A DNA stretch of 57,585 nt, from the sequence record MT682705.1; one strand, given 5' to 3'. Of the stretch, positions 19,244-57,585 are shown in pieces. This DNA is from Escherichia phage vB_EcoS_SP8. The notes under the pieces are model-generated. The model saw only the letters and a program-made list of their open reading frames with translations, made no database searches and was not told where the DNA came from. A program made the translations under genes and the position numbers. Position 1 is the stretch's first letter; every line of letters begins with the position of its first letter.

Positions 19244-19763
19244 TTAAAGTATCCTCTTGCAGCTTAGTCTGAGACTCCCCAGCAACTTTTTCCCAATCAT
19301 CCATAGAACCAACCATAGGAACCAGCATAACACCAGTAGATACACCAACATCCATCTTCTGTTGCTTAGGAGCTTCAAATCCAAAGATGCTACATAATTG
19401 TTTATATGCAGCAACACGAGCAGCTTGAGAAGATCCAGGTCCACGATAAGTGGATTCAAATCTAAGACCTTCAATAATGCGCTGGCGCTCTTGTTCTATT
19501 TCATATTTGCGGTCACGTTCAGCACTTCTTGCTTTCTGCTGTTGAAGTTCTTTAATTCGCCTTTGGCAATAGCTATCATCCTGAAAACGTTTAGCATAAT
19601 CAAACGCCATTGCGGAGCTCATGCCTACACGTTTACACGCATTAACCCAATCATAATCGAACAGATATTCTTCAACGACAGAGTCACGTATAGCCATCTC
19701 GTCTTTAGTGAGATCAGCTTCGTATTCAATGCTACGTGTCCAAGGTAGAATAGGCTTTACCAT
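19212..19763 (-). CDS. putative terminase small subunit
   Basis: ORF immediately upstream of and overlapping terL; start at ATG (MVKPILPW) preceded by GGGAG. Confidence 0.4.
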   Translation of the reverse strand: MVKPILPWTRSIEYEADLTKDEMAIRDSVVEEYLFDYDWVNACKRVGMSSAMAFDYAKRFQDDSYCQRRIKELQQQKARSAERDRKYEIEQERQRIIEGLRFESTYRGPGSSQAARVAAYKQLCSIFGFEAPKQQKMDVGVSTGVMLVPMVGSMDDWEKVAGESQTKLQEDTLNGLNDSNTVH

Positions 19764-19892
19764 AACGTTACTCCCGTCGATTCTTGACACGAATATAAGC
19801 GGTGGATTAATTAATTGCAAGGGTTATAACAAATGTCAATAAAAAGCCCGCTCGATATAAATTCAAGGAGCGGGCTTTACTTATAAACCAAT

Positions 19893-20135
19893 CTACATTT
19901 CCGCTTTAGGAATGTACGTTATCTCCCGGATGTCTTGTTTGATTTGTTCAACCTTATTGACCACATAAACAGGTGGTGTTGAAGGTTGCAGGTTTGCCCT
20001 GTGTTTCTTGTGCATCTGATCAATTGCGATAGCACTGACTCCAATTTGTGCAAGTCCAATCATCATATAGATGAAAAGCAATCGCGGTTTCTTACACAAT
20101 ATAAGAAGATCATTGATGAAGTGACGCATAATCAA
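19893..20135 (-). CDS. small membrane protein, lysis-associated (possible antiholin or spanin-like)
   Basis: 80-aa ORF with one hydrophobic segment (LLFIYMMIGLAQIGVSAIAI) adjacent to holin-like gene. Confidence 0.3.
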   Translation of the reverse strand: MIMRHFINDLLILCKKPRLLFIYMMIGLAQIGVSAIAIDQMHKKHRANLQPSTPPVYVVNKVEQIKQDIREITYIPKAEM

Positions 20136-20440
20136 CCTCTTTCCTTTTCTCGGTCACATGCTTCTGTCTTTCTCCGTAGAAACTTTAGCATGGTTCTTGA
20201 ACCGGACCAAGATAACACGCCTATGAACGCCCCACTGAGCCCAAGTGAGACACCATGTTCCACGTTAATTACACCTATCAAGAAACCAAAGAATGCAGAA
20301 AAAGCACCCTCTTGAATGAAGACACTAAGTCTGAACCTTTCTTTAGCATCATGGGTTCTTGCAGCGTAGCCAAGGGAACCCCCTACCATCGCAATGGCAG
20401 TGAGAATAAAAACTATATTCCAATCCCAGTTCGGCGACAC
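20132..20440 (-). CDS. putative holin
   Basis: 102-aa ORF with three hydrophobic segments and a charged C-terminal tail (KFLRRKTEACDREKERG); adjacent to endolysin-like gene. Confidence 0.45.
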   Translation of the reverse strand: MSPNWDWNIVFILTAIAMVGGSLGYAARTHDAKERFRLSVFIQEGAFSAFFGFLIGVINVEHGVSLGLSGAFIGVLSWSGSRTMLKFLRRKTEACDREKERG

Positions 20441-20453
20441 TTATAACCTCTTA

Positions 20454-20888
20454 CTATGCCATGTGAATACCCGCGAGCAAAACTTCATCAGAATAAGGTT
20501 GCACACCGTTCTCATGTTTGATAATCGCTTTCACGATCGCAAGCATGATTTTATCATCGGTCACTGAAATCGGCTGTTCTGCACCAACACCACAAGCCTT
20601 AGACACAGATTGAATATAGGCTTCAGTGTTATTTTCATTCGGCGGAGCCCAGCGCGAAATAATTTCCCGTACAGTGTCAATCCCTTTATTTCCGACACGC
20701 TTCATCCCTTCGCGGTTGCGGTAGTTTAGTAAAATACGCGCAATGGCGCGAATACCGTATTTTACATCGATAAATTGACAAAAAGAACGATCGGTCCGTT
20801 TGTCTTCAGGAACAAGACCTTTCCAATTATCACCCCAACGAATATTTCCCGGATTGTTATTCCGGATACCTCGTGGTTGCACAGTCAT
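20454..20888 (-). CDS. putative endolysin (peptidoglycan hydrolase)
   Basis: about 144-aa ORF between spanin and holin genes; start at second ATG (MTVQPRG) preceded by GGAG; family not identifiable by eye. Confidence 0.4.
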   Translation of the reverse strand: MTVQPRGIRNNNPGNIRWGDNWKGLVPEDKRTDRSFCQFIDVKYGIRAIARILLNYRNREGMKRVGNKGIDTVREIISRWAPPNENNTEAYIQSVSKACGVGAEQPISVTDDKIMLAIVKAIIKHENGVQPYSDEVLLAGIHMA

Positions 20889-20978
20889 AAAAAGCTCCAT
20901 TCAGTTAAACCGAATAGAGTATAGTTGAATTATCACATGCACACAATCAATTATGTGCAATTAAGATTGAATGTTTAG

Positions 20979-21323
20979 TTACGCAACCCGGCAAGGACTT
21001 TGCAGTTTATCACTTTTCTTTACGCGGATTTCGCATTGCATCATACTGTAGTTCGCACTGCTCTCCGGCAATACGATACTTTTCAGCCTCTTCTGCCACT
21101 TGTCTGTATTCTGTGACGCTTTCTGAATACAGCTCGGTGAGCACACGGGCGATCTGGGCGGTTGTCTTGCTGTCGGGCTGAGGGCCGGTAGCGTCACCGA
21201 GGTACTTACGGACGGTTGCGATTTCGTTGTGCAACCTGTCATTAGTAGCGCGATAATTATTAAGATCGGCAACCAAAGATTCAATACGAGATCTGTACTG
21301 ACGTTCGATAGTGTCTTTCTCAT
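20979..21323 (-). CDS. putative o-spanin (outer-membrane lipoprotein, Rz1-like)
   Basis: ORF in alternative frame overlapping the 3' part of the i-spanin gene; lipobox-like LLMTGC after a hydrophobic stretch; Pro/Ser-rich mature part. Confidence 0.45.
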   Translation of the reverse strand: MRKTLSNVSTDLVLNLWLPILIIIALLMTGCTTKSQPSVSTSVTLPALSPTARQPPRSPVCSPSCIQKASQNTDKWQKRLKSIVLPESSANYSMMQCEIRVKKSDKLQSPCRVA

Positions 21324-21510
21324 ACACTCTTCGTTTCTCCTCCTCGAAATCAACCTCTTTCTGAGTTTCTTTTTGGTACGACACACCGGCATCGAAACCC
21401 TCCTTTCTAGCTGATTCTATGGCATTGTCATAAGCCCAGTTGGCTAGAATAACAATTATGACAAGTGGTATCCAAGGTGCAACAATACCAATTATTCTTC
21501 TAAGGAACAT
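21010..21510 (-). CDS. putative i-spanin (Rz-like)
   Basis: 166-aa ORF with N-terminal transmembrane segment and charged helical remainder; overlapped by lipoprotein ORF. Confidence 0.5.
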   Translation of the reverse strand: MFLRRIIGIVAPWIPLVIIVILANWAYDNAIESARKEGFDAGVSYQKETQKEVDFEEEKRRVYEKDTIERQYRSRIESLVADLNNYRATNDRLHNEIATVRKYLGDATGPQPDSKTTAQIARVLTELYSESVTEYRQVAEEAEKYRIAGEQCELQYDAMRNPRKEK

Positions 21511-21719
21511 ACTTTGTCACCAACCCCCATAGACAAGTATTGGATAGCAAGAAGAAAGGCTATAGCATCTTTCGTATCCCCTAGATCTTTAAGAGTCTTA
21601 AATTTATCTTCAAGTTGCTGTACATGCTTTTCAAATTGTGGCAAAGCATCAATCTCAGCGGCAGCTCCGCGCATATACACTCTTGCAGCGGCTAATTGCT
21701 CATTTGTAGGATCGCTCAC
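21492..21719 (-). CDS. hypothetical protein
   Basis: 75-aa ORF, overlapping start/stop arrangement with neighbours. Confidence 0.3.
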   Translation of the reverse strand: MSDPTNEQLAAARVYMRGAAAEIDALPQFEKHVQQLEDKFKTLKDLGDTKDAIAFLLAIQYLSMGVGDKVCSLEE

Positions 21720-21907
21720 GATGTTCTCCAGATTACACTGTTTCGAATTTCATCATTCCAAACGTACTTCCCCTTCTCACCGTTTTTATAGGATGGAACA
21801 GAGAAAACGGAGGAACTTGGATACAAATCCGATGTTGTTAAGCGTATACGCTTACCGTCAAAAGGTCCACCAACACAAAGGAACAGACCGGTCTTAGGTT
21901 TCTTCAA
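21716..21907 (-). CDS. hypothetical protein
   Basis: 63-aa ORF in minus-strand operon. Confidence 0.3.
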   Translation of the reverse strand: MKKPKTGLFLCVGGPFDGKRIRLTTSDLYPSSSVFSVPSYKNGEKGKYVWNDEIRNSVIWRTS

Positions 21908-22368
21908 AATGGTTTCTCCTCGATTTTACACTGCGCCACTTTAAGAGTATAGGCTACGTCATAGAACTTAACCCCTTGACCACAACTGTCGCAATATACG
22001 CACGCCAGTCGTACTGCCTCTTCGGCGGTGCAACCTCCCGCCATTGCACCCATCAAGAACTCAAACGCACCACCTTCTGCAATAAATTCGTTAGTGTCCG
22101 GTAGACCTAATTTACCATCCCCGTAAATAGGATATACGACAAGTTCCTGCGTCACGGCAATACCATAACGGGAATCCGGATTTAAGTCCGAAAAAGGTTC
22201 TTTACGTCCACGAACCGTAGTCTTCAGATGGTCTATAATATCAGTTACAGGACGTAGTTTACCAGACATCGCAACAAGACAAAGTCCAATTCCTGGAATA
22301 TTGACAGTATGAACTTTATCCGTAGTTGTTGCAATATTACCCCATGTAACCTGACGATCTACAGCCAA
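21904..22368 (-). CDS. hypothetical protein with Ntn-hydrolase (HslV/proteasome)-like C-terminal pattern
   Basis: segment FIAEGGAFEFLMGAMAGGCTAEEAVRLACVY resembles the Gly-rich region of HslV-type Ntn hydrolases; weak by-eye similarity only. Confidence 0.3.
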   Translation of the reverse strand: MAVDRQVTWGNIATTTDKVHTVNIPGIGLCLVAMSGKLRPVTDIIDHLKTTVRGRKEPFSDLNPDSRYGIAVTQELVVYPIYGDGKLGLPDTNEFIAEGGAFEFLMGAMAGGCTAEEAVRLACVYCDSCGQGVKFYDVAYTLKVAQCKIEEKPF

Positions 22369-27102: not shown

Positions 27103-27596
27103 GTACCCGCACCACCTCCCGCGCTACCCTGCTGACCACATATTCCTCACCCATAACTCCACCATTCGCGCTCTAAGAACCTGAATCCCTCTTCCGTACA
27201 TTACCATTGACTCCAATTCAGTCGCCTTATACGCCCTTACAGTGATCCACTCCCTGCTTCCCTGTACGCGATTTTGCGGCATTTTCGCCCCTCACCGCCA
27301 CCCTTACACCGATCCAACCAGTTAATCGCGCTACGCGCCCCGTTTTCGCGGCTATTTTCGCTTTATGGGCGACCCGTTACCCCGATCTCAGCTACCCAAC
27401 CTCACCGAAAAGCCGGCTTTGCCCGAAAAATCCGGCATTTATACCATAAAATAGAATCGTTTTCGGGCTACAAAATTTCAAACTCGCAAATCGCTTTCAC
27501 TTCGAGAGTTACCTCAGCAAAAATCGCTTGCAATCCACTTTTCTTTTGTGTTAGACGCGCGGACGCGCATTATGCGCAGGCGCCAGGCTCTGCCCT

Positions 27597-28018
27597 GTCT
27601 ACTGACGAGCCAGATTTATAAAGTTAATAAATTCGTATATTTTCGCGTAATGTACGAAATGAAAGGGGGTAAGTGCATGAAAAATAAGGTAAAAAATGTG
27701 TGTATGTGTGTATTTATATAAATTTTATAAAGATTTTTTGTTTTTTTAGTTGTCTACTGACGACCCTACGAGACCCCTTTATAAAATTTATAAATTCCCA
27801 CGTTCCCCCCAACTCTCGAAATTTTCCCTTATTTTTCATACACTTCGCTTCGCCGTTTCGTATGTTGCTGGATCTTTATAAATTGTGCATTTTTTCACCG
27901 ATCTTTATAAATTTGCAATTTCTCACCTTCAGACTGCTGTAATTTTTGCAAAAGCAAAAACTTTGCATATACAAACACCGCAAAATGTCACAATTGCAAA
28001 TAGCAAAAACTTCGCATA
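27597..28018. repeat. cluster of direct repeats in a 1-kb non-coding region
   Basis: GTCTACTGACGA at about 27597 and 27752; GATCTTTATAAATT at about 27871 and 27900; AGCAAAAACTT(T/C)GCATA at about 27953 and 28002; TTTATAAA recurring at least 5 times. Confidence 0.6.
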
Positions 28019-28079
28019 AATTAAAACTTGGCAACTGAATTTCAAAATTAATCGATTTTATTTAGTCAAGGGTGAGGTT

Positions 28080-28700
28080 ATGCGCAATCGTAATATTGAA
28101 ATAACGCACGCACACGTACAGGAAATGTTCGGTTATGACGAACAAATGTATGCCAAAGCGGTAGCCATATTAGAACAGCACAAAGACAGCCTAAGTAATG
28201 TGGTCAAAGCGTGGAAGGAGGCTGGCCTCGTGTTGCGGCCGAATGCGGTCAAGAAGTTAGATGACGGGCGGATGTATATGTGCTGGTCGGCTCCGATGTT
28301 GGGTATGATGTTTACTGTCGACATCTACTTCGGGTACTGGTTGTTAGAGGTGGATTGTGTGATTCCGCTCGACAAGTATATGCACAGTAAAGGATTCAAC
28401 AGTTGCTTTGACGTGTGTCCTGATACGGAAGGCAACGCTGTTATGATCCTGGGCTTTAAGTGGGTCGGCGATAAGTGTGAAATTAGGCCGTTGCGATACC
28501 CGCGTGGTAAAGCCCGTCGTGCATATATTGAAGATGGTGTTGTTGGCTGGTGTGATGTACAGAAGCGTCGGATGGGTGCTAACCACATTGCGCATATCAA
28601 GGAGTGCCTCGTTAGACTTCAGGCGAATAATAGTGGTAATGTGCAGTTACAGCAAGAACTGCAAGAGCTCATTGAATACATTGATCAGTTTGGAGCGTAA
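28080..28700 (+). CDS. hypothetical protein
   Basis: 206-aa ORF, first gene after the repeat-rich non-coding region; RBS GGGTGAGG. Confidence 0.45.
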   Translation: MRNRNIEITHAHVQEMFGYDEQMYAKAVAILEQHKDSLSNVVKAWKEAGLVLRPNAVKKLDDGRMYMCWSAPMLGMMFTVDIYFGYWLLEVDCVIPLDKYMHSKGFNSCFDVCPDTEGNAVMILGFKWVGDKCEIRPLRYPRGKARRAYIEDGVVGWCDVQKRRMGANHIAHIKECLVRLQANNSGNVQLQQELQELIEYIDQFGA

Positions 28701-28701
28701 G

Positions 28702-28971
28702 ATGATTGGCGAACAAGATGTTCTTCCTAAATGGTATCCTGATTATCGTAAGTCGGATACTTTGATGCGTATTCAGTTTATCTTAGATCACCAGACTGAC
28801 TTTTCATTGTATTTAAGGGAGGAGCTACAACGAACGGATATGAAGAACCTGTGGGCCATTAAGAAACGTCTTCGTTTACGGAAACATCTTGATGACCTGC
28901 ATAAAGTTATGCAACAACTTATACGGTATAACATCCGTATTAAAGAATCGCGTGATATCTGGAGGAAGTGA
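28702..28971 (+). CDS. hypothetical protein
   Basis: start at ATG (MIGEQD) just after the upstream stop. Confidence 0.4.
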   Translation: MIGEQDVLPKWYPDYRKSDTLMRIQFILDHQTDFSLYLREELQRTDMKNLWAIKKRLRLRKHLDDLHKVMQQLIRYNIRIKESRDIWRK

Positions 28972-28979
28972 TAGTGGGA

Positions 28980-29312
28980 ATGATCAAGTTAAAATGGTAC
29001 GTGGATCCTGAGCCAACAGGACCATACAGGTCTTTCCAACGTAGAGGGTGGCCGACTTGTTACAACGGCAATCCTGATAAAGAAGATTGTGATGTGCTTG
29101 CAATAATTGTCAGTCTTAATCGTGATGGATATGAAGGTCATTACGCAAAGGCAACAGACTTACGTCTGAAAGTCCGTATATACTTCAAGATTGGAGGAGA
29201 ACACCGTACAGGACTCTCTAAGGAAGAGTTCAGTAGCATTGCCGAAGCAAAGTTATGGCTTAAAGACTTCTACAAGAAGAACCCTCAATACTATCCATTT
29301 AAGGAGAAGTGA
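28980..29312 (+). CDS. hypothetical protein
   Basis: start at ATG (MIKLKW). Confidence 0.4.
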   Translation: MIKLKWYVDPEPTGPYRSFQRRGWPTCYNGNPDKEDCDVLAIIVSLNRDGYEGHYAKATDLRLKVRIYFKIGGEHRTGLSKEEFSSIAEAKLWLKDFYKKNPQYYPFKEK

Positions 29313-29662
29313 TGCAAACAGTAAGCAATTCGCCTTTATATAAAGCAAAGGTGCGACTTCTTGAACAAGCTAAGCAGGTAGACCCGAATACAAATCCGGA
29401 TTTACTTGACGCTATTGTCAATGCGATGGAAGTTATGGACTTTGCGGACTTTCTGTTCCATCGCGTGTCGCACGTCGCCAAGGCTTTAGGTTACACGGGT
29501 AATGTCGAAGATTTTCAAAGTGCGTTCGAATACCTTATGCGTAACCGCGAGAAGGCGCTGGTGGTGGATCGTCAATATCAGCTTATCAAAAATAAATCGA
29601 AGGTCGAACGTCTACTTCGTGAGACTTTGGAAATAGTAACGGGAGGTGAAGATGCAAATTAA
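29312..29662 (+). CDS. hypothetical protein
   Basis: start at ATG (MQTVSN) preceded by AAGGAGAAG. Confidence 0.4.
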   Translation: MQTVSNSPLYKAKVRLLEQAKQVDPNTNPDLLDAIVNAMEVMDFADFLFHRVSHVAKALGYTGNVEDFQSAFEYLMRNREKALVVDRQYQLIKNKSKVERLLRETLEIVTGGEDAN

Positions 29663-29780
29663 TCTTACTCAGAAGGCTGTGCGATACTTCGGCGAAGTGT
29701 TCTTTGTTCCAGTGTGGGCGAAATACCTTGCGGTTGACGAGGACGGAACTTTAACTGCATTCGAGAATGAGCCTCAGTAG
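29652..29780 (+). CDS. small ORF ending at an in-frame TAG that is followed by 86 further sense codons
   Basis: ATG preceded by GGGAGGTGA; 42 codons then TAG; the downstream ORF (to 30038) is in the same frame. Confidence 0.3.
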   Translation: MQINLTQKAVRYFGEVFFVPVWAKYLAVDEDGTLTAFENEPQ

Positions 29781-30030
29781 TGCGAATGTATTGATGGCGA
29801 TGGTTTTTGGGTATTGACCGAGCCAGGTATTGAAATCGATATCTGTTATAACGTGGACCTGGAAGGTATGGATTTCAAAGAAACGTGTGTTAATATTGAC
29901 TATAAAGTAAGCGACAACCCACACGACCACACTGAATGGTTCGAACGTATGCGCAAAGACGATTATAAGCGAACATTAAACGGACAATGGACTCCAGCAT
30001 GTGGTCAACTGAATAAAGAAGGTGGCAAAG

Positions 30031-30246
30031 ATGAGTAAAGAACTCCAAACTGCGTTAACTCAAGAAGAAATTGATATTCTTCAAACCGACATCCTTACTT
30101 TGTGCAAGCGTATTAAAGACGCTTATGAAGAAGGTTTATTTGACAAGCAATTGAACCAGGAAGTTCAGACTGACGAACAACTGTGGAACGCGTCTAGTGC
30201 GAAATGTATCTATGACGCATTGATGAAACAAGCTATGGAGCAATAA
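30031..30246 (+). CDS. hypothetical protein
   Basis: start at ATG (MSKELQ) preceded by GAAGGTGG. Confidence 0.35.
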   Translation: MSKELQTALTQEEIDILQTDILTLCKRIKDAYEEGLFDKQLNQEVQTDEQLWNASSAKCIYDALMKQAMEQ

Positions 30247-30248
30247 TC

Positions 30249-30518
30249 ATGATTACAGCACAAGAAGCTCGTACAAATAGTGAAAACTTGGATACCAGTG
30301 CATATCTTGATGATTTGGATAAATGGATTACTAAAGCATCTCTAGATGGCAGGGATCATATTAAATTATTTAAAAAGCCATATAGTGAAATCGGTAGTCC
30401 TAATGCACGTCCTGTAATGAGAAAGGTGACTGAACAACTGGTATCATTTGGATATACAATCTCATATACGCAACCATTAAGCCAGCTGGATACTGAAAGT
30501 GTAGAAATTTTATGGTAA
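30249..30518 (+). CDS. hypothetical protein, low-GC island gene 1
   Basis: 89-aa ORF; visibly AT-rich relative to flanking genes. Confidence 0.4.
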   Translation: MITAQEARTNSENLDTSAYLDDLDKWITKASLDGRDHIKLFKKPYSEIGSPNARPVMRKVTEQLVSFGYTISYTQPLSQLDTESVEILW

Positions 30519-30533
30519 TTGTGAAGGTAATAT

Positions 30534-30947
30534 ATGCTAGTCAAACTCGTTGTCGATGTTAAATTTGAAGAACCAATTAAAGGTCAGAATATTCATACTT
30601 TGGAAATTGGTTCTTTTGATGTAAGTAAATTTTTTAATGGTAGGAGTAAATTCTTTAAAGATAAATCCTTAGATTTACCATGTGATATTAACCACAAATT
30701 ACCATCTCGATCTTCTGCGAAAGTCCGTGGAAATGGGCGTATCCTGTCTTTTGCTGATTCTATGAAAGATTGGGAAGATTTAAAATTTATTGTTAGCGCA
30801 CGTATATTAAAGACCGAATATAAAGTAGCTTCTGATAATTATATGAAACACTTTTATCCGAGAATAATTTTTAAAGATCGTATAAACATCTCTAAAGAAG
30901 AGATAATGTGTAAACCTATCACCTGTCGTTGGGTCATAGTACCGTAA
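30534..30947 (+). CDS. hypothetical protein, low-GC island gene 2
   Basis: 137-aa ORF, AT-rich; followed by hairpin GCAGGGG...CCCCTGC. Confidence 0.4.
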   Translation: MLVKLVVDVKFEEPIKGQNIHTLEIGSFDVSKFFNGRSKFFKDKSLDLPCDINHKLPSRSSAKVRGNGRILSFADSMKDWEDLKFIVSARILKTEYKVASDNYMKHFYPRIIFKDRINISKEEIMCKPITCRWVIVP

Positions 30948-31021
30948 TTTGCAGGGGGTTAGACCCCTGCCGATCCATCAGTATATACTAGGTGTGTCCT
31001 AATGGATCGTAGGAGAATAAC

Positions 31022-31258
31022 ATGTCAGATTTAATTACCGTTCACTATTATGGTTCAGATGTAGAAGTACCAAAAGACACAAGATATATTGCAACAGATT
31101 CTGATGGTTGCGTGTACGCATTTAATAATGACAAGCCCGTCTTTAATGAAAAAGTCGGTACATGGTGTGTTTACACGAATTCTTTTAAGCTGGTAGATGT
31201 CAACTTTAATGTTGTACCATCACGTTCGTTATTTGAAATTAATCCCGCTACGTTTTAA
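31022..31258 (+). CDS. hypothetical protein, low-GC island gene 3
   Basis: 78-aa ORF, AT-rich; RBS AGGAGAA. Confidence 0.4.
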   Translation: MSDLITVHYYGSDVEVPKDTRYIATDSDGCVYAFNNDKPVFNEKVGTWCVYTNSFKLVDVNFNVVPSRSLFEINPATF

Positions 31259-31267
31259 GGTAATGAC

Positions 31268-33817
31268 ATGCTGGAACTTTTTCCTCAAGAAATTAAACAA
31301 TACGAACAGTGGGCTGTCTGCGGTTTCCATCCAGGTACATCATCAGAAAAACAACCTTATGTATGGGACGATGATTTAGGGGATATGGTCCCACTTCGTA
31401 AAGACGGTAATGATAAGAAACCGTCTAACCTGCATTTACTTATGTCTTTTGAAGATGCTGAACGCTGCATTCGTTATTATAACGAGATTGGCCATAACTT
31501 GCGTTTAGGTTTCTATTTACTTCCAAGTGACCCGTTCTGTTGTATTGACATGGACATTAAAGATACCATGTCTGAAATGGAAAAGAAAGTTGCTGGTGAG
31601 CGATATAAGAAGATTGTTGAATCGTTCCATAGCTATACGGAAATTTCCAGAAGCGGTGATGGGTTGCACACATGGATTTATTCTATCCCTCAAGCTGGTA
31701 AGCGCCGTGATGGTGTGGAAGTGTATTCACAATATCGTTTTATTATCTGTACAGGCGATCACTGGGATGTTACTCCGCGCACTGTGTCTGGTGCTCCAGG
31801 CAGTGAAAGCGAAGGGTATATTGCTAATCTCATTCATCAGCTTATGTCTGAGATGAGTGAGATTAATGAGTCTGATGGCTTCCAAATGCTGGAACTTACT
31901 GAAGAAGATTTTAGTAACGACCCATATGCAATGGAAGATCAGGATGTCTATATTCAGTTGTGTGAACAAGAAAACGGGACATTGTTTAAGCAGCTATGGG
32001 AAGGTCGTTGGAGAGCTGAAGAAGTTGATACTTCTATCGGTGAACGCTGTTTCCCTTCTCAGTCTGAAGCAGAATTTGCATTAATTGACTTTCTTTGCTT
32101 TAAGAGCAAGTATAATTTCCAGGTAAGACGCCTATTCATGTATTCACCAATGAGTAGTCGTTACGATGATTCCCGTCGTCTGCCTGGTGAAAAAATCAAA
32201 CGTCCGTATCACCTGGATAGAATGATTCGTAACTACCGCTATGATGCCCATGTTAAATCTATGGGACTTATGCAGATAGTTCAGAATAACGTTAATGCAG
32301 CTATAGAGCGCACGGAGAAACTGCGTCAAGCAACTACACCAGAACGCCCACCTGAAGAAGTGTTGACCACAGATGGCAATTACACTGAAGAGCAGGCAGA
32401 CGGTTTGGCTTGGCCTCCGGGCTTTATGGGCGAGGTTGCGCGTAACATGTATAAAGCGAGCTTGTTGCCTATTAAAGACATTAGTATTCTGTCTGCTCTT
32501 GCTTTATTTAGTGGTATGTGCGGTAAGGCGTGGAACACAGTCACACGAAGTGGTCTGAATAACTACTTTGTATTAATTGCACGTTCTGGTATTGGTAAAG
32601 AAGCGTTTCGCTCTAACATTGAAACTATTCTTTCTCAAGTATCCAATTATGGCGGCCAGGACGGTCAGCAGATATTTGGTATTGAACGTGTTTTGGATAC
32701 AAGTACCTATGCGTCTGATGCTGCATTGCGCAAGGATGTCATAATGGATACGTCCGTTATGTCTTGTGGCTCATCCATCAACTATAAGACTGAAGTCGGT
32801 GCATTTTTCCGTAACGGTAAGATGGAAGTTGGTAAAGCTAAAGACATTATGGATGAAATGCTTTCCCTTTATGACAAGGGGCATTTCTATGCTTTCTCTG
32901 GTGGTTCAAAACACTCTAGTAAAGATAATACGACTGCTGGAGGTAAGGTTAAGGCGTATAGTTTTGCAGGTGAAACAACACCAGATGAATTTTATGGCAA
33001 CGTAGACGACCGTATGATGTCGAGTGGCTTCATGTCCCGCATTATCGCATGGGAATGTACAGCTAACCGCCCATTGATGAATAAGAGTATGCTCCTGGAA
33101 TATCCAGAAGCAATTCTGCGCACTATTGGAGCTATCTATAAACAAGCTGTGCGCATTATGTCAGGGACTGCCCCATGCTATGTTGAAATGGAAGCAGAGG
33201 TACACGAAGCATTTGATAATCTTGATAATGTTGTTGCGAAGTTCCTGAACAGCGGCAATGATGGTGAGCAGGTACAAGACGAAGTAATTCGTCAGATGTA
33301 CACAAGGAAGGCGTTGAAGGTATTGCGTATCGCTTCTCTTCTTGCTGTAGCGGATAACAGTGAGCGTCCTGTTGTTACTATGGAACATTATCGTTGGGCT
33401 GAGTCATTTATTGATCAGGGTAACGAGCGTTTCTTAGAGAAGCGTAATAGTGGGCAGATTGGGTCTACAGATAGTACCAGTCGTGAGAAAATAATGCTCA
33501 ACTCTATCAAGAAGTTCTTGGATGGGGAAGTTAAAGCTGGTGTGTATAAACGGTTCCCAATGTTTAAGGGCGCGTTTATTGTCACACGGAGTGACTTATG
33601 TACTTATTGTAGACAATTTAAAGCGTTCAAGCAGACAAGAAATGACAACATCTTGCAGGTCATAGACAACACAATTTATGGTTTGATGTCTATGGAAGTT
33701 CTTACTGAAATGAGGCCAATGGACTTTTCAAGTTTCTTCGGTGCAGAGTTTACACCACCGAGGATGAAGTGTTATTTGGTAGACATTGAGAGAATGAACG
33801 AAGTTATTAAGTTATAA
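31268..33817 (+). CDS. DNA primase-polymerase (AEP-like) fused to a helicase-like C-terminal domain
   Basis: 849-aa ORF; N-terminal CCIDMDIKD (DxD) and SGDGLHTW motifs typical of archaeo-eukaryotic primase folds; Walker A-like SGIGKE in the C-terminal half. Confidence 0.55.
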   Translation: MLELFPQEIKQYEQWAVCGFHPGTSSEKQPYVWDDDLGDMVPLRKDGNDKKPSNLHLLMSFEDAERCIRYYNEIGHNLRLGFYLLPSDPFCCIDMDIKDTMSEMEKKVAGERYKKIVESFHSYTEISRSGDGLHTWIYSIPQAGKRRDGVEVYSQYRFIICTGDHWDVTPRTVSGAPGSESEGYIANLIHQLMSEMSEINESDGFQMLELTEEDFSNDPYAMEDQDVYIQLCEQENGTLFKQLWEGRWRAEEVDTSIGERCFPSQSEAEFALIDFLCFKSKYNFQVRRLFMYSPMSSRYDDSRRLPGEKIKRPYHLDRMIRNYRYDAHVKSMGLMQIVQNNVNAAIERTEKLRQATTPERPPEEVLTTDGNYTEEQADGLAWPPGFMGEVARNMYKASLLPIKDISILSALALFSGMCGKAWNTVTRSGLNNYFVLIARSGIGKEAFRSNIETILSQVSNYGGQDGQQIFGIERVLDTSTYASDAALRKDVIMDTSVMSCGSSINYKTEVGAFFRNGKMEVGKAKDIMDEMLSLYDKGHFYAFSGGSKHSSKDNTTAGGKVKAYSFAGETTPDEFYGNVDDRMMSSGFMSRIIAWECTANRPLMNKSMLLEYPEAILRTIGAIYKQAVRIMSGTAPCYVEMEAEVHEAFDNLDNVVAKFLNSGNDGEQVQDEVIRQMYTRKALKVLRIASLLAVADNSERPVVTMEHYRWAESFIDQGNERFLEKRNSGQIGSTDSTSREKIMLNSIKKFLDGEVKAGVYKRFPMFKGAFIVTRSDLCTYCRQFKAFKQTRNDNILQVIDNTIYGLMSMEVLTEMRPMDFSSFFGAEFTPPRMKCYLVDIERMNEVIKL

Positions 33818-33845
33818 AAAATGGGCGCTATATGCGCCAATTATA

Positions 33846-34070
33846 TTATTCGTGCAACTCTAAGAACCCACATACAACGTATTCAAACATCTCGTCGTAA
33901 TCTGGTGTTGAAAAATCTCCAACGTGATACTCATCTTTCTCAAATGTGACCACAGTTGAGGATCCCATATATTCATATTTTATTATCGAACTACCTTGCT
34001 CAAATAAGAATTCCTCTGATTTGTTCATTGCAGTTCTGATGTTTCTTTTTATAAGATCTTGGTGAGTCAT
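33846..34070 (-). CDS. hypothetical protein on the opposite strand within the plus-strand block
   Basis: 74-aa AT-rich ORF with RBS GGAGGAACAC before ATG; flanked downstream by hairpin GGCGC...GCGCC. Confidence 0.4.
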   Translation of the reverse strand: MTHQDLIKRNIRTAMNKSEEFLFEQGSSIIKYEYMGSSTVVTFEKDEYHVGDFSTPDYDEMFEYVVCGFLELHE

Positions 34071-34168
34071 TTTGTGTTCCTCCGCTTACAAACTGTATAA
34101 TACATACTATAGAGCATTTCCTTAGGAATGCAATAGGTATCAAGAATTATTTTACGTCCGAGGGTCAA

Positions 34169-34447
34169 ATGTCCAGTTACAATCTAGCAGCTATTAAAAT
34201 TGTGTACGGTGCTCTATACCAGGATGAGGAGTTCCCAGGCATTGAGCAGGCAATTAAAAGAATCAAGTCTAATCGTGTTGACTCGGAACAACTGTTCGAC
34301 TATGCTTTAGCCATAAGTAAGAACGAGGTCCGTCCTTACTATGAAACGCTGTCACGCCAGTTACGAAGTGTAATAGAAGAACGTGACTTAATGCGGCACT
34401 GTGGATATACCTTCTTAACCGGCAGAGCCATGCGTGTCAGCAAATAA
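34169..34447 (+). CDS. hypothetical protein
   Basis: 92-aa ORF; upstream TATAAT -10-like element. Confidence 0.4.
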   Translation: MSSYNLAAIKIVYGALYQDEEFPGIEQAIKRIKSNRVDSEQLFDYALAISKNEVRPYYETLSRQLRSVIEERDLMRHCGYTFLTGRAMRVSK

Positions 34448-49488: not shown

Positions 49489-50010
49489 ATGGGTTACACT
49501 GTCATTCGTTCACATGAAATTTGCGCTGGGCATCGTGTCGTAGGGCATGAAAGTAAGTGTCGTCACCTTCACGGTCACAATTATAAGTTTCACTTTAAGG
49601 TTGCGCCGAAGCGCGTAGAGAGCGAAAACTACATCCCGGGCTCGAAAGGTTTCTCGTCTGAAGGTAAACTGGATGATGTTGGTCGCGTTATTGACTTTAG
49701 TGTGGTTAAAACTACGCTTTGCCAGTGGTTGGAAGATAATTGGGATCATAAATTCCTGCATTGGAGTCGTGATAACTTGATTGACGCTTTGAAAATTGCA
49801 GCAAGTCGCCCGAGTTGTCCTCTGGAACATGAAGACCATGAGCATTTCTTAGGCTCATTGGTAGCTTTGCCATTCAACCCAACTGCGGAAAACTTAGCTG
49901 CGTATATGGTTGACGTGATTGGTCCACAACTGCTTGACCAATATGGTGTTGAATTGGTAGAATGCACCATTGAAGAAACGTCCAAATGCCATGTTAACTA
50001 TTGCAAATAA
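49489..50010 (+). CDS. queD: 6-carboxytetrahydropterin synthase (QueD)
   Basis: CRHLHGH zinc-binding motif typical of QueD/PTPS; about 173 aa; RBS GAGGAA. Confidence 0.7.
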   Translation: MGYTVIRSHEICAGHRVVGHESKCRHLHGHNYKFHFKVAPKRVESENYIPGSKGFSSEGKLDDVGRVIDFSVVKTTLCQWLEDNWDHKFLHWSRDNLIDALKIAASRPSCPLEHEDHEHFLGSLVALPFNPTAENLAAYMVDVIGPQLLDQYGVELVECTIEETSKCHVNYCK

Positions 50011-50036
50011 TTGACCACACAAGGAAACTGCAAACC

Positions 50037-50651
50037 ATGAATGAATTTACAAAGATGACAAACCGAGCAGAAATTTCACACAGTATTGAAAAGATTTTAA
50101 AGTTGATTGAAGGTGGCGATGAATTGCGTGAAGGTTTAGTAGAAACTCCAGATCGTGTAGCTAAGGCTTATGCTACATGGTTCGGGGGTTATTCTGTCGA
50201 TATCGCATCCCTGTTCAAGACATTTGAAGATGGTGGGGAAGACTGCGATGAAATGGTCATCGTGCGTGATATCCCTGTATATAGTCATTGTGAGCATCAC
50301 ATGGCTCCTATTATTGGTCATGCGGTGGTTGGATATGTTCCAAATGGAAAAATTGTCGGTCTCAGCAAGTTATCTCGGGTAGTTGATGCTTTCGCTCGAC
50401 GTTTGCAAGTCCAAGAACGTCTAACTAACCAGATTGCGGACGCTATCCGTGACCATTTAGAGCCGAAAGCTGTGTGCGTCTACATCGATGCAAAACATAT
50501 GTGCATGGAGTCGCGCGGTATTAAACAGGTATGCGGTAGCTCAACTATCACTAAGGCATTCCGCGGGCGTACTGCATTGGGCGATGGTGTGTTACCGGAC
50601 GTAACTGGTGACACATGGCGTCGGGAATTTCTTGAAGCGTGTAAAAAGTAA
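50037..50651 (+). CDS. folE: GTP cyclohydrolase I (FolE)
   Basis: YSHCEHHMAPI motif and overall collinearity with FolE; start at ATG (MNEFTKM) preceded by AAGGAAA. Confidence 0.75.
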   Translation: MNEFTKMTNRAEISHSIEKILKLIEGGDELREGLVETPDRVAKAYATWFGGYSVDIASLFKTFEDGGEDCDEMVIVRDIPVYSHCEHHMAPIIGHAVVGYVPNGKIVGLSKLSRVVDAFARRLQVQERLTNQIADAIRDHLEPKAVCVYIDAKHMCMESRGIKQVCGSSTITKAFRGRTALGDGVLPDVTGDTWRREFLEACKK

Positions 50652-53156: not shown

Positions 53157-55126
53157 GAAAAGACGCGATTGGGTTTTTCTGGACGGATTTACCTCCCGCT
53201 AAGAAAGAGAAGAAACAGAAAGTAAAACGTCAACCAGTTGAAAGGGTATGGGAACGCCCAGACTACCTTCCAGGTCTTGATGCAGCAATGCGTTTTGCAG
53301 CTAATGATCCGCGTATGACAGACGGTGAATTAGTGGAAATGTATTTTGCACAAGAAACGTTCGTATACGATATCGAATGTTATAAGAATTATTTTCTTGT
53401 GGCGTTTAAAGGGGTTAAGTTCGGTAAGGTTTATTATCTAGAAATGACTGCCGGTCAGACACTTGACACGGAAAAATATGAATGGATAATGAAGAACTTT
53501 CGTACCGTTGGTTTCAACTCAAGAAACTACGATAATACGATGACATTCCTTGCCATTGCTGGTTTAACTGTTGACAAGCTAAAAGAAGCAAGTGACAGGA
53601 TGATCCAGGAAGAGTGGGCTCCGTGGGACATTCTTAACAGTTTTGGGGTAAAACAGTTTTGGATTGACCACATTGACGTTCAAGAAGTAGCTCCGGGCTT
53701 CGGTTCGTTGAAGCTGTATGGTGGCCGTATGCACATGCAGAAGCTCCAGGACTTACCATTCCCACCACATTGGGCGTTATCCGTAGAACAGATTGCTATT
53801 GTGCGCTTCTACTGTATTAACGACCTTGATACAACAATGGCTCTGTTTAACTCACTGGAAGAGCAAATCCATCTACGTGAGATTATGAGTGAAGAGTATA
53901 AAGTAGATCTTCGCTCTAAATCCGATGCACAGATTGCAGAAGCTGTAATCCGCCATGAAATGAAGGAAATGCTGGGCTTCGTACCACAGAAGGGTATGGT
54001 GGAAGTTGGCAGAACCTTTAGGTACAATCCTCCAGTGTGGTTAGGTTTCCAAACGCCACTAATGAAGTCCGTATTTCAGGTTGTGCTTGATAGTTACTTC
54101 CGAGTCGCAGAGGATGGTAAAATTAAGCAACCATCGACAATGAACTCTCTGAAGTTTACAATCAATCAGACAACTTACAACATGGGTATCGGTGGTCTGC
54201 ACTCATGCGAAGAGTTAATGGAGATTGTACCATCTGAAGATGAAGAGATGTGGGATGCTGACGTAACGTCATACTACCCGATCTGTATCATTAACCAGCG
54301 ACTATATCCTGAGCACCTGGGCCCGCGCTTTATAGATATTTTCGTTAAGATCGTAGAACGACGTATTGCAGCTAAGATGGCTCATGACGATAAGACCTCA
54401 CAGACTCTTAAGATCGTTATTAACGGTTCTTATGGTAAGTTCGGTTCACCGTTCTCTATTCTGTATGCACCGCATCTTATTATTCAGACCACATTGACAG
54501 GTCAGTTGGCTCTGCTTATGCTCATTGAAACACTAGAGCTTAACGGCATTCAGGTCGTTAGTGCTAACACGGATGGTATCGTTATTAAGCCTTGCAAAGC
54601 TAAGAAGCAATTAATGACGGATATCATTAAGTGGTGGGAAGAAACAACTGGCTTTGAAATGGAGTTGAACCAATACCTGCGTCTTAACTCTGCAAACGTC
54701 AACAACTACGTCGCAATCAAAGCAGATGGTAAAGCCAAGCGTAAAGGTTGGTTCGCAGAGACAGGTCTAGCTAAGAACGCGGAAGGTGAGATTATTATGG
54801 ATGCTGTGGTCAACCTTCTCCGTGACGGTACACCAATTGCTAAAACTATCACAGAGTGTCAGGACATTCGTAAGTTTGTTTGTATCAAGACAGCTAACGG
54901 TGGCGCTGCATGGAATAGTGAGCCATTGGGTAAAGTCGTTCGCTGGTATTATACAAAAGAGGAAGTACCTGAGATACTAATAGTCAAGAGTGGTGGTCGT
55001 GTCGGTAAGACAGCAGGGGGTAAACCTATGATGGAACTCACTGACCAGTTACCGCCGGATCTCAACCACGAAGTGTACATAGCTAAAGCGGAAAAATTGC
55101 TGGAAAAACTCGCATACGCCGCTTAA
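53153..55126 (+). CDS. DNA polymerase, family B-like
   Basis: Exo I-like YDIECY; motif A DVTSYYP; motif B KIVINGSYGKFG; motif C SANTDGIVI. Confidence 0.7.
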   Translation: MRKDAIGFFWTDLPPAKKEKKQKVKRQPVERVWERPDYLPGLDAAMRFAANDPRMTDGELVEMYFAQETFVYDIECYKNYFLVAFKGVKFGKVYYLEMTAGQTLDTEKYEWIMKNFRTVGFNSRNYDNTMTFLAIAGLTVDKLKEASDRMIQEEWAPWDILNSFGVKQFWIDHIDVQEVAPGFGSLKLYGGRMHMQKLQDLPFPPHWALSVEQIAIVRFYCINDLDTTMALFNSLEEQIHLREIMSEEYKVDLRSKSDAQIAEAVIRHEMKEMLGFVPQKGMVEVGRTFRYNPPVWLGFQTPLMKSVFQVVLDSYFRVAEDGKIKQPSTMNSLKFTINQTTYNMGIGGLHSCEELMEIVPSEDEEMWDADVTSYYPICIINQRLYPEHLGPRFIDIFVKIVERRIAAKMAHDDKTSQTLKIVINGSYGKFGSPFSILYAPHLIIQTTLTGQLALLMLIETLELNGIQVVSANTDGIVIKPCKAKKQLMTDIIKWWEETTGFEMELNQYLRLNSANVNNYVAIKADGKAKRKGWFAETGLAKNAEGEIIMDAVVNLLRDGTPIAKTITECQDIRKFVCIKTANGGAAWNSEPLGKVVRWYYTKEEVPEILIVKSGGRVGKTAGGKPMMELTDQLPPDLNHEVYIAKAEKLLEKLAYAA

Positions 55127-55160: not shown

Positions 55161-55279
55161 AATAAAATGCCCTAAAATGCCGCACGTTGCCTCTGCTTAT
55201 TCTTCTTTTTCTTGTTTTTTATTTGATTCTTGGATGCCTAGCACAGCAATACGTTGTGCAATATCAACTTGTTGCTGAG

Positions 55280-57469
55280 TTAACTTTCCAGCGTTGTTGG
55301 TTTGTTGAGTAACGCCGCTACCGCCGCCTTAAGATCTGCAATTTCAGATTTCAGTGTTTCGATCTCCTCTTGTTGCTTGTCAACTTGATCACTTATTTCG
55401 TTGAATGCGTTAACCAAAAGAGCAGTAACCCCGCCATAGCTAACACCTAAATATTCAGAATCTGAAACCTTGTAAACCGCTTCCGGCAGAACTGTTTGCA
55501 CATCTTGAGCGATTACACCAGCCTCCTCCGAATATATAGAATGTTCATCTTCATAAAGATTACTGCGCTTAAAGTAAGTGTAACCCTTGATTGACTTCAC
55601 TTTTTCTCTAGCGCTCTTAATCTCCTTCAAGTTTGCTTTCAGTCTAATATCTGACGTACTGACCCATTGAACACATGAGGCGTAACCAGCTCCATTAAAT
55701 GTGTAAATCGCACTCCTTACATTAAAACGAGCCTCGCAATCTCCACTGCTATATCTGGCAACATCAAGACCAGCAACCCAATCATAACCCCACCGAACGG
55801 CCTTAAAGATGTTTGAGGCTGTATCATCGCCTGGCAACTCAACAAGAAGACCAGACGCTCGATCCCTCCATTCAACAAAAGCACCTCCAGATACTTGACC
55901 GCCAATTAGAGCATTACCGCCACCAATTCTAGATCCTGAAACTCTAATGCCATTTGCATTATTATCAATAGGCCATATGTTTAAAAGACCGTTAAGATGA
56001 AGGTTTTGATGATCAAATGAGGCAACATTTGTACCATTACAAAAAACCTGCAACACTCCGTTACCGCCTTGCTTAAATCCAGTGCCGCTATCACCTATAA
56101 CTAACGAATTAGTCCCAAGTGAATTTGTAATGCCTCTACCAATTGTTATTGTATTGTAATTTATGGCGTTTCCGCTTTCGTCAAATTGATAATAGTTTGT
56201 GTCTCCACCTTCTCTTGTTACATGTATTGTTGCATAAGCAGTACCACCTAGAATTTCATTGTAGATCCTTGAGTATGAAAGTTGCACACCTTCTGCGTTC
56301 TTATTTCTAAGGTAAAGAATGCCTGATGATTCGCCGTTGTTGTTATCAAGATGTACACCCAAGAACACAGGAATATGATTTGTCGCAAGCCCTAAAATGT
56401 GCCTTACTCCATCTGGAGTTGTTGCACCTGTACCACCTGAAGATATAGGAAGTGGAATAAATCCAACATTACCTTCTTCCGTTGAATAAACACCCCAAGA
56501 CGATTCACTTATTGTTATGTATTTTTCTCTTCCGGGAGAGAATAACACAGTTTCATTAGGATACTGCTCCAACCTGTCTACACGAATATTTTTTCTGGAG
56601 ATTTCTACGTTAAAAAGATCCGAAAGATTATTTTCTTTTAGCAATGATTTACCAATAATACCTTCAGCTTTTCCAGCAGCCACTTCAGCACGACCAGCGT
56701 CTGTAGATGCACTTTGTGCGCTACCAGCGGCATTGCCAGCCTGTTGTCCTGCTTCGGTAGCACTATTACTTGCTTGTACAGCGGAAGCAGCAGCAGCGTC
56801 TTTTAGCGCGGTAGTTTCGGACACAGCAGCGTCTTTAATTGCTTGCGTCTCGCTTACTGCGCTATTCTTAATACCCTGTGTGTCTACTTTTAACTGCTCA
56901 ACGTTAGATTTTAAACCTTGAATTGTGGTTACAGCTTGTGATGCAGTGTTAGCAGAACCGGCAGCGCCCGCCTGTGCTTGTCTAGCAGCGTCTTCACTAG
57001 CTTTAGCATCATTTTTATAGACAAGTGCATCCGAAGCGGATTGAGCAGCTGAAGCCTTACTATTGCGAGCGTCAGTAGCATCCGCGTTTGCTGCCGCAGC
57101 AGAGCGGCCAGCTTGCAAAGAGTATTCTTCAGAAGCAGCCACAAGTTGTTGAACTTGTTTGATAACATCTGGTGTTAGTTCTTCTTCCACCCAATTAACA
57201 AGATAACCATTAAGTGACCCATCTGGACTATCTGCATATAGCACAATTTCTCCAGCCTTATATGGTTCTTTTCCTTGAGGGCCCACTATAACCACATAGT
57301 GTCCTGGGTTCACTGTGATATTATATGCACCTTGAGAATCTGTACGGAATATCGCTTCGCTACTACCTAACACTATGAGTGTATTACTTCTTGCTATCAA
57401 GGATACGGTTGCATTAACAATAGGTTTATTCAAACCATCTGTTAGGATACCATATAGACGAATTGTCAT
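55280..57469 (-). CDS. tail fibre protein with C-terminal intramolecular chaperone (peptidase S74-type) domain
   Basis: 729-aa ORF; Ala/Ser/Gln-rich repetitive central region; C-terminal STSDIRLKANLKEIKS... matches the self-cleaving chaperone module of phage fibres; RBS AGAGGTAAA. Confidence 0.6.
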   Translation of the reverse strand: MTIRLYGILTDGLNKPIVNATVSLIARSNTLIVLGSSEAIFRTDSQGAYNITVNPGHYVVIVGPQGKEPYKAGEIVLYADSPDGSLNGYLVNWVEEELTPDVIKQVQQLVAASEEYSLQAGRSAAAANADATDARNSKASAAQSASDALVYKNDAKASEDAARQAQAGAAGSANTASQAVTTIQGLKSNVEQLKVDTQGIKNSAVSETQAIKDAAVSETTALKDAAAASAVQASNSATEAGQQAGNAAGSAQSASTDAGRAEVAAGKAEGIIGKSLLKENNLSDLFNVEISRKNIRVDRLEQYPNETVLFSPGREKYITISESSWGVYSTEEGNVGFIPLPISSGGTGATTPDGVRHILGLATNHIPVFLGVHLDNNNGESSGILYLRNKNAEGVQLSYSRIYNEILGGTAYATIHVTREGGDTNYYQFDESGNAINYNTITIGRGITNSLGTNSLVIGDSGTGFKQGGNGVLQVFCNGTNVASFDHQNLHLNGLLNIWPIDNNANGIRVSGSRIGGGNALIGGQVSGGAFVEWRDRASGLLVELPGDDTASNIFKAVRWGYDWVAGLDVARYSSGDCEARFNVRSAIYTFNGAGYASCVQWVSTSDIRLKANLKEIKSAREKVKSIKGYTYFKRSNLYEDEHSIYSEEAGVIAQDVQTVLPEAVYKVSDSEYLGVSYGGVTALLVNAFNEISDQVDKQQEEIETLKSEIADLKAAVAALLNKPTTLES

Positions 57470-57585
57470 TTTTACCTCTTATCTGTAAAATTAATAGATA
57501 TTTCAGGGCATACAAATATGGTAAATTAAATTAGAATATAAAACAATATTATCTATCGTCTTTAACCACATTATTTGGAGTGATT

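What the first reader, a model, noticed from the sequence alone, without database searches (positions are those of the whole stretch)
29652..30038. Two ORFs in the same frame separated only by a TAG codon
A 42-codon ORF with a strong RBS ends at TAG, and the same frame then stays open for 86 more codons. The downstream part has no ATG with a convincing RBS at its beginning. This could be one gene interrupted by an amber codon (laboratory amber mutation, suppressor-dependent read-through or recoding), a sequencing error, or two genes with a non-ATG start for the second.
Basis: seen in the sequence. Interest (0 to 1): 0.4.

Follow-up and report, generated by a model that had tools for sequence, protein, structure and literature searches.

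The report
Amber-interrupted accessory gene in Nonagvirus phage
The two same-frame ORFs are one small phage gene of unknown function cut by a single G-to-A change (Trp TGG to stop TAG) that no related phage carries, so this is an ordinary recent gene knock-out, not recoding or two genes.

Summary
ATG 29652 opens a frame that meets TAG at 29778-29780 and then stays open to TAA at 30036-30038. The window is a Nonagvirus (9g/JenK1-like E. coli siphovirus, about 94% identical to known members). The 387-nt stretch is the ortholog of 9g_00030, a 128-aa hypothetical protein (phrog_1972). All 23 other copies examined have TGG (Trp) at codon 43, so the window differs by one G>A at 29779. The frame is under strong purifying selection on both sides of the stop (dN/dS 0.03-0.05). 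An AlphaFold model puts codon 43 inside a strand of a single beta domain. Recoding is excluded: this is the only one of 78 orthologous genes with an in-frame stop, six genes end in TAG, and the only tRNA is tRNA-Ala. No downstream start codon has a usable RBS. The substitution spectrum shows no systematic G>A miscalling. The most likely reading is a recent loss-of-function nonsense mutation in a dispensable early gene. The same gene has an independent TGG>TGA in phage FritzHoffmann (Bas20), plus a deletion and a frameshifted copy elsewhere. A single-base sequencing error cannot be excluded without reads. This is ordinary and of low interest.

The parts
29652..30038 (+). Whole interrupted gene (128 codons plus TAA), ortholog of phage 9g gene 9g_00030 / JenK1 AKA61103; family phrog_1972, function unknown
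   Evidence: It has the same 387-nt length and position as the single CDS annotated in the relatives. tblastn with the JenK1 protein gives 96.9% identity over 1-128 with one stop. phrog_1972 matches residues 1-128 at E=2.3e-43.
29778..29780 (+). Amber codon TAG at codon 43; a G>A transition at 29779 from ancestral TGG (Trp)
   Evidence: TGG is present in 12 GenBank relatives, 6 IMG/VR contigs and 5 metagenome contigs, and TAG in none. The change is private to the window.
29642..29648 (+). Shine-Dalgarno sequence GGAGGTG of the gene
   Evidence: Read from the sequence.
29652..29777 (+). The 42 codons that are still translated: the N-terminal half of the beta domain (strands 1-4 and the start of strand 5)
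   Evidence: AlphaFold model of the intact ortholog: strands at residues 7-12, 15-20, 25-28, 34-37 and 41-45. dN/dS across relatives is 0.05.
29781..30035 (+). The 85 codons left untranslated: the second half of the beta domain (conserved W53 and the VDLEGMDFKETCV segment) plus a variable C-terminal tail
   Evidence: dN/dS is 0.03 for codons 44-95 and 0.33 for codons 96-128. Conserved columns W53 and L70 come from the 50-sequence alignment. No restart codon has a well-spaced SD.
30031..30246 (+). Next gene of the operon; its ATG overlaps the natural end of the interrupted gene (ATGAGTAA) and it has its own SD AAGGTGG
   Evidence: JenK1 ortholog 95.8% identical and intact.
31022..31258 (+). Intact stand-alone paralog carrying the same small beta domain (phrog_19703), just upstream of the primase/helicase gene
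   Evidence: It hits phrog_19703 at E=7e-57 and also phrog_1972 at E=7e-12, over profile positions that span the site of the TAG. It aligns with the family.

Best explanation
A single real G>A transition at 29779 turned Trp codon 43 (TGG) of a conserved 128-codon accessory early gene into an amber stop. In an ordinary non-suppressing host, translation ends after 42 residues, in the middle of a single small all-beta domain. The product is then almost certainly non-functional and the remaining 85 codons go untranslated. The event is recent: the rest of the gene still looks fully selected. The phage tolerates it because the gene is dispensable. Shown here: one gene, a Trp ancestor, uniqueness of the TAG, no recoding machinery, a cut within one domain. 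Inferred: loss of function, dispensability, and that the change is biological and not a base-calling error.
For: All 23 other copies have TGG and an uninterrupted ORF of the same length. The phrog_1972 profile match runs from residue 1 to 128 across the stop. dN/dS is 0.05 upstream and 0.03 downstream of the stop in this frame. The window's other private changes in the gene are 4 synonymous and 0 missense. In the AlphaFold model, residues 11-80 have pLDDT 87-95 and form one beta domain, with codon 43 inside strand 41-45. Stand-alone homologs of 74-100 aa cover profile positions ~1-82 as one unit. This is the only one of 78 JenK1 orthologs with an in-frame stop, and there are no frameshifts. 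Terminal stops are TAA 52, TGA 17 and TAG 6. The only tRNA is tRNA-Ala. Dispensability: FritzHoffmann has an independent TGG>TGA at Trp96, P0005 has a 19-aa in-frame deletion, P0007 is a frameshifted copy, and HdK1 lacks the first 9 codons. The private-substitution spectrum is balanced (G>A 174, A>G 182) and G>A contexts equal the background.
Against: No reads are available, so one miscalled base cannot be ruled out. The host is unknown. On a supE/supF-type laboratory strain the amber codon would be partly suppressed and the gene would still work, since position 43 is variable in the wider family (Leu in P0003, P0004 and P0006; many residues in distant homologs). The lack of any decay downstream is equally expected if the gene is still expressed.
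Confidence: 0.77

Rival explanations
1. Sequencing or consensus error: the true genome has TGG at codon 43 and the A at 29779 is a miscall, possibly helped by 7-deazaguanine-modified DNA, which lowers Nanopore base quality in this phage subfamily.
For: The change is a single base, is unique among 24 copies, and the gene shows no other sign of decay. Queuovirinae DNA carries about 25% modified dG and gives lower Phred scores on Nanopore. The CAjan DpdA is reported to act on GA, GGC and GGT, and the ancestral context here is T-G-G-T (PMC10484667).
Against: The assembly is otherwise clean: 77 of 78 orthologous genes have no stop or frameshift. The window's 174 private G>A changes are balanced by 182 A>G changes. 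They are not enriched at GA, GGC or GGT (24%, 3% and 4% against background 27%, 4% and 7%), the same as in four control genomes. Substitution errors are much rarer than indel errors in finished assemblies (general knowledge).
Confidence: 0.12
2. The amber codon is functionally read through, either because the phage was isolated or propagated on an amber-suppressor E. coli (such as a supE44 or supF strain) or as a laboratory amber mutant, so both a 42-aa and a 128-aa product are made.
For: Related phages have been isolated on supE44 laboratory strains (ESCO3 on DH5a; the supE44 genotype of DH5a is my own knowledge). Position 43 is variable, so Gln or Tyr there should be tolerated. The intact downstream codons fit continued use.
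Against: There is no phage-encoded suppressor tRNA. The stop is not conserved in any relative. No significant RNA structure follows it (z = -1.5). The next base is U, which to my knowledge favours efficient termination in E. coli. Conditional-lethal amber mutants are selected in essential genes, whereas this gene is broken in other viable phages. The balanced spectrum shows no mutagenesis signature.
Confidence: 0.08
3. Two genuine separate genes, the second starting at a non-ATG codon after the TAG, or genome-wide reassignment of TAG to a sense codon.
For: Only the bare layout of two same-frame ORFs.
Against: All relatives encode one continuous protein. One structural domain spans the junction. 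The first in-frame start is TTG at 29814, without an SD. TAG terminates six other genes and interrupts none. There is no tRNA with a CUA anticodon.
Confidence: 0.02

Closest known systems
Orthologous gene 9g_00030 (AHN84546) / JenK1 AKA61103 / family phrog_1972 of Nonagvirus phages
   Same: Same position between the same neighbours, same 387-nt length, 97% protein identity, full-length profile match.
   Different: The window copy has TAG instead of TGG at codon 43, so it cannot make the full protein without suppression.
bas20_0066 of Escherichia phage FritzHoffmann (Bas20, MZ501068)
   Same: Same gene, also knocked out by a G>A transition in a Trp codon. These are the only two in-frame nonsense codons seen in 335 ortholog comparisons.
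   Different: A different codon (Trp96) and a different stop (TGA). It is an independent event in a different lineage and leaves the beta domain intact.
Classical phage amber (UAG) nonsense mutants, such as T4 am and lambda amber mutants (own knowledge)
   Same: A single-base change to UAG that truncates the protein and is suppressible by supD/E/F hosts. TGG>TAG is a typical route.
   Different: Those were selected as conditional lethals in essential genes after mutagenesis. Here the gene appears dispensable, there is no mutagenesis signature, and no known link to a suppressor host.
Stop-codon-reassigned phages (TAG read as a sense codon, e.g. some crAss-like and Lak phages; own knowledge)
   Same: An in-frame TAG inside a conserved gene.
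   Different: Those have many in-frame TAGs, often a suppressor tRNA, and avoid TAG as a terminator. The window has one in-frame TAG in 78 genes, no suppressor tRNA, and six TAG terminators.

Membership tests
phrog_1972 / 9g_00030 gene family | Full-length sequence match to the family profile | tested here: met
   E=2.3e-43, residues 1-128 against profile 24-160 of 160, with Trp restored at codon 43.
phrog_1972 / 9g_00030 gene family | Conserved genomic position (between the 116-aa and 71-aa early genes, upstream of primase/helicase) | tested here: met
   Same gene order in the relatives' loci.
phrog_1972 / 9g_00030 gene family | Uninterrupted reading frame | tested here: not met
   TAG at codon 43. 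The window copy is a member by descent but a disrupted allele.
Genome-wide TAG reassignment (recoded phage) | Many in-frame TAG codons in conserved genes | tested here: not met
   1 of 78 orthologous genes.
Genome-wide TAG reassignment (recoded phage) | Suppressor tRNA (anticodon CUA) encoded by the phage | tested here: not met
   Only tRNA-Ala(TGC) at 54650-54723.
Genome-wide TAG reassignment (recoded phage) | TAG not used as a terminator | tested here: not met
   Six orthologous genes end in TAG.
Programmed stop-codon read-through site | Stop codon conserved among relatives with a selected downstream extension | tested here: not met
   0 of 23 other copies have a stop at this codon.
Programmed stop-codon read-through site | Stimulatory RNA structure or leaky context 3' of the stop | tested here: inconclusive
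   The fold of 29765-29880 gives z = -1.49, and 13 of 200 shuffles fold as well. The effect of the UAG-U context was not measured.
Laboratory conditional-lethal amber mutant | The mutation lies in an essential gene | tested here: not met
   The same gene is truncated, deleted or frameshifted in other viable phages and contigs. Essentiality itself is inferred, not assayed.
Laboratory conditional-lethal amber mutant | Propagated on a suppressor host; mutagen signature | not testable with these tools
   The host of the window phage is unknown. The spectrum of private substitutions is balanced, which argues against mutagenesis.
Two independent genes | Own start codon with RBS for the second ORF, conserved in relatives | tested here: not met
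   The first in-frame start is TTG 29814 with no SD, and the relatives are continuous.
Sequencing artefact | Lack of read support for A at 29779 | not testable with these tools
   No reads available. Indirect tests (clean assembly; no G>A excess or motif bias) argue against it.

The most novel reading that the evidence does not exclude
The gene may be a target of recurrent, selected inactivation and not merely dispensable. The only two in-frame nonsense codons found in 335 ortholog comparisons across five Nonagvirus genomes both fall in this 128-codon gene (window W43am, Bas20 W96op), and a 19-aa deletion and a frameshifted copy exist in metagenomes. That pattern would fit a protein that is costly on some hosts, for example one sensed by a bacterial defence system, so that knock-outs are escape mutants.
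Probability: 0.08. Interest if true: 0.45.

Novelty: already known. Interest (0 to 1): 0.1.

Why it matters
It matters mainly for annotation. The two ORFs should be recorded as one disrupted gene (a pseudogene or amber allele of the 9g_00030 family), not as two small genes, and not as evidence of recoding. It adds one natural knock-out, suggesting that this widespread but uncharacterised small phage beta domain is dispensable for growth of a Nonagvirus. It also gives a minor lead: the same gene is independently knocked out in BASEL phage Bas20.

Tried and rejected
(1) I looked up contigs encoding exactly the 42-aa fragment. Three were found, but in all of them the gene simply runs off the contig end, and one ends ...CAGTG, the TGG allele. 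This was uninformative.

(3) Pfam gave no family for the protein, its paralog or the multi-repeat homologs; only sub-threshold noise.

(5) Literature searches for 'Nonagvirus' with 'amber' or 'nonsense mutation' returned 0 papers.

(6) I tested whether G>A miscalls or mutations concentrate at deazaguanine target motifs. No enrichment was found, so the idea was rejected.

(7) The promoter and terminator scan of 27500-34200 gave counts at or below the shuffled expectation, and no signal inside the gene.

(8) An RNA structure after the stop was not significant.

(9) The minus-strand ORF 29751-29930 (59 aa) overlapping the site was dismissed, because the plus-strand frame carries the homology and the selection signal.

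Full report
**Observation.**
- A Shine-Dalgarno sequence GGAGGTG lies at 29642-29648, followed by ATG at 29652.
- Then come 42 sense codons, TAG at 29778-29780, 85 more sense codons in the same frame, and TAA at 30036-30038.
- From base composition, an 85-codon open stretch after a stop has a probability of about 0.006. Only 2.4% of all stop-to-stop intervals in the window are that long.

**What genome this is.** The region and a 24-kb stretch around it match 17 records of the genus Nonagvirus (Queuovirinae) at 90-95% identity, with no closer record. These are the siphoviruses of E. coli and Salmonella typified by 9g, JenK1, JenP1, JenP2, SE1, BRET, and Bas19 and Bas20. Their DNA carries 7-deazaguanine modifications. 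The window holds the expected FolE/QueD/Gat-QueC/QueE/DpdA cluster, polymerase, primase/helicase and structural genes.

**One gene, not two.**
- In 9 of the 12 relatives fetched (JenK1, 9g, HdSG1, ESCO3, SE1, PD328, JenP2, BRET, ChristophMerian), a single 387-nt CDS is annotated at the equivalent place, exactly the length of window 29652-30038.
- JenP1 has a 57-nt in-frame insertion, HdK1 starts at codon 10, and FritzHoffmann has its own stop (see below).
- The DNA alignment shows the window differs at codon 43 by one base: TAG against TGG (Trp) in all 12.
- A two-allele pattern scan (TRG) found 6 IMG/VR contigs and 5 metagenome contigs. All carry TGG and an intact ORF. Two IMG/VR contigs have exactly the lengths of JenP2 and SE1 and are probably those genomes.
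- In total, 0 of 23 other copies have TAG.

**The frame is a selected protein on both sides of the stop.**
- Across relatives, dN/dS is 0.05 for codons 1-42, 0.03 for codons 44-95 and 0.33 for the variable tail 96-128.
- With Trp restored, the protein matches phrog_1972 (unknown function) from residue 1 to 128 at E=2.3e-43. There is no Pfam hit.
- A profile search of 1.84 billion representatives found 83 relatives. Most are stand-alone 74-100 aa proteins that match profile positions ~1-82 as one unit. Some are 430-1000 aa proteins with 5-9 tandem copies.
- The consensus is 'YFG..VP.W..YLA.D.DG....F...P – variable loop – W… VDLEG.DWK.TLV'. The nearly invariant residues are Y12, A27, D29, G32, P41, W53 and L70. 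Position 43 itself is variable.
- The window also carries an intact stand-alone paralog at 31022-31258 (phrog_19703).
- An AlphaFold model of the intact ortholog (50-sequence alignment) has pLDDT 87-95 over residues 11-80. It forms one seven-stranded all-beta domain, and codon 43 lies inside strand 41-45. The amber codon therefore cuts a single fold in half.

**No recoding, no suppressor, no restart.**
- I mapped all 86 JenK1 proteins onto the window. 78 have a counterpart, and only this gene has an in-frame stop. None is frameshifted.
- The terminal stops of the orthologs are TAA 52, TGA 17 and TAG 6, so TAG is a normal terminator here.
- The only tRNA is tRNA-Ala(TGC).
- The in-frame start candidates after the TAG are TTG 29814, GTG 29853, ATG 29868 and ATG 29949. 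None has a well-spaced SD. The GGAAGGT before 29868 abuts the ATG.
- The RNA downstream has no significant structure (z = -1.5).
- The next gene (ATG 30031) overlaps the natural stop and has its own SD AAGGTGG, so it can initiate independently. Any polar effect on it is inference only.
- The promoter and terminator scan shows nothing within the gene.

**Real mutation or error?** Reads are not available. Indirect evidence favours a real change.
- The assembly has no other broken gene.
- I polarised lineage-private substitutions with five genomes. The window has 462 in 31.8 kb, with G>A 174 against A>G 182, like the four controls.
- The contexts of its G>A changes (GA 24%, GGC 3%, GGT 4%) equal the background of all G sites (27%, 4%, 7%). 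These are the motifs reported for the only mapped Queuovirinae DpdA, that of CAjan (PMC10484667). Nothing points to systematic miscalling, or to hypermutation, at modified G sites.
- Within the gene, the window's other private changes are four synonymous and no missense. This fits a very recent event, but equally fits an error or a still-expressed gene.

**Dispensability.**
- The same gene is damaged independently elsewhere. FritzHoffmann/Bas20 has TGG>TGA at Trp96. P0005 lacks 19 residues, including codon 43. P0007 is a frameshifted copy, and P0008 is a C-terminal fragment called from Met73.
- A census with JenK1 proteins over five genomes (335 ortholog comparisons) found only two in-frame nonsense codons, both in this gene. 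Frameshifts occur in other genes of 9g, BRET and Bas20.
- Neighbouring small early genes are also occasionally lost. 9g keeps only a 24-aa remnant of the ortholog of 30249-30518. One metagenome contig has a frameshift in the ortholog of 29309-29662.
- The gene has five Trp codons, which enlarges the G>A nonsense target. The recurrence is therefore suggestive but not compelling evidence of selected loss.

**Conclusion.**
- The feature is a TGG>TAG nonsense allele of a conserved but dispensable accessory early gene of a Nonagvirus. It yields a 42-residue fragment of a single beta domain in a non-suppressing host (confidence about 0.77).
- Rivals: a one-base sequencing error (about 0.12); functional suppression on an amber-suppressor host (about 0.08; plausible because position 43 tolerates many residues, but unsupported by any positive evidence); two genes or TAG reassignment (about 0.02, effectively refuted).
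- It is a known kind of event and of low interest. The annotation should treat 29652-30038 as one disrupted gene.

Noticed in passing
L011 (MZ501068 FritzHoffmann/Bas20) locus 851-1237; record 50147-50434 and 49840-50163: The same gene carries an independent TGG>TGA at Trp96. The record annotates a shortened CDS (bas20_0066) and an upstream-extended neighbouring CDS (bas20_0065). Across five genomes, the only two in-frame nonsense codons are both in this gene.
   Followed up: partly
window 29652-29900 and 31022-31258; proteins P0009-P0014, P0021: There is an uncharacterised ~80-aa all-beta phage domain (YFG..VP.W..YLA.D.DG....F...P – loop – VDLEG.DWK.TLV). It has no Pfam family and no structural relative in the PDB. 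It occurs as stand-alone proteins and as 5-9 tandem copies in 430-1000 aa proteins. The window has two members.
   Followed up: partly
window 28968-29312 (+): A 114-aa ORF (GTG start) lies between the orthologs of JenK1 AKA61105 and AKA61104. It is absent from JenK1, 9g, JenP1, SE1 and most others, but present in JenP2, BRET and PD328-like genomes. This is a mosaic indel in the early-gene cluster.
   Followed up: partly
L029 (phage 9g KJ419279) 19683-22231 and about 30418-30735: The 9g record has apparent frameshifts in the primase/helicase gene (annotated as two CDSs, 9g_00025 and 9g_00026) and in the ortholog of a 164-aa JenK1 gene. 9g also keeps only a 24-aa remnant (9g_00028) of the ortholog of window 30249-30518. 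These may be sequencing errors in that older record.
   Followed up: no
window 1-4600 and 55200-57585: The tail-tip and tail-fibre region is only 53-71% identical in protein to JenK1, and six JenK1 genes there have no counterpart. The rest of the genome is 94-100% identical. This is host-range module exchange. Overall the window is about 94% identical in DNA to every known Nonagvirus, which suggests a separate species-level lineage.
   Followed up: no
window 33824-33838: A perfect GC-rich hairpin (GGCGCTATATGCGCC) directly follows the primase/helicase stop. It scores as terminator-like on both strands and probably marks the end of the early operon that contains the interrupted gene.
   Followed up: no
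window 54650-54723 (-): A single tRNA-Ala(TGC) gene is the only tRNA in the window. It is irrelevant to amber suppression.
   Followed up: no
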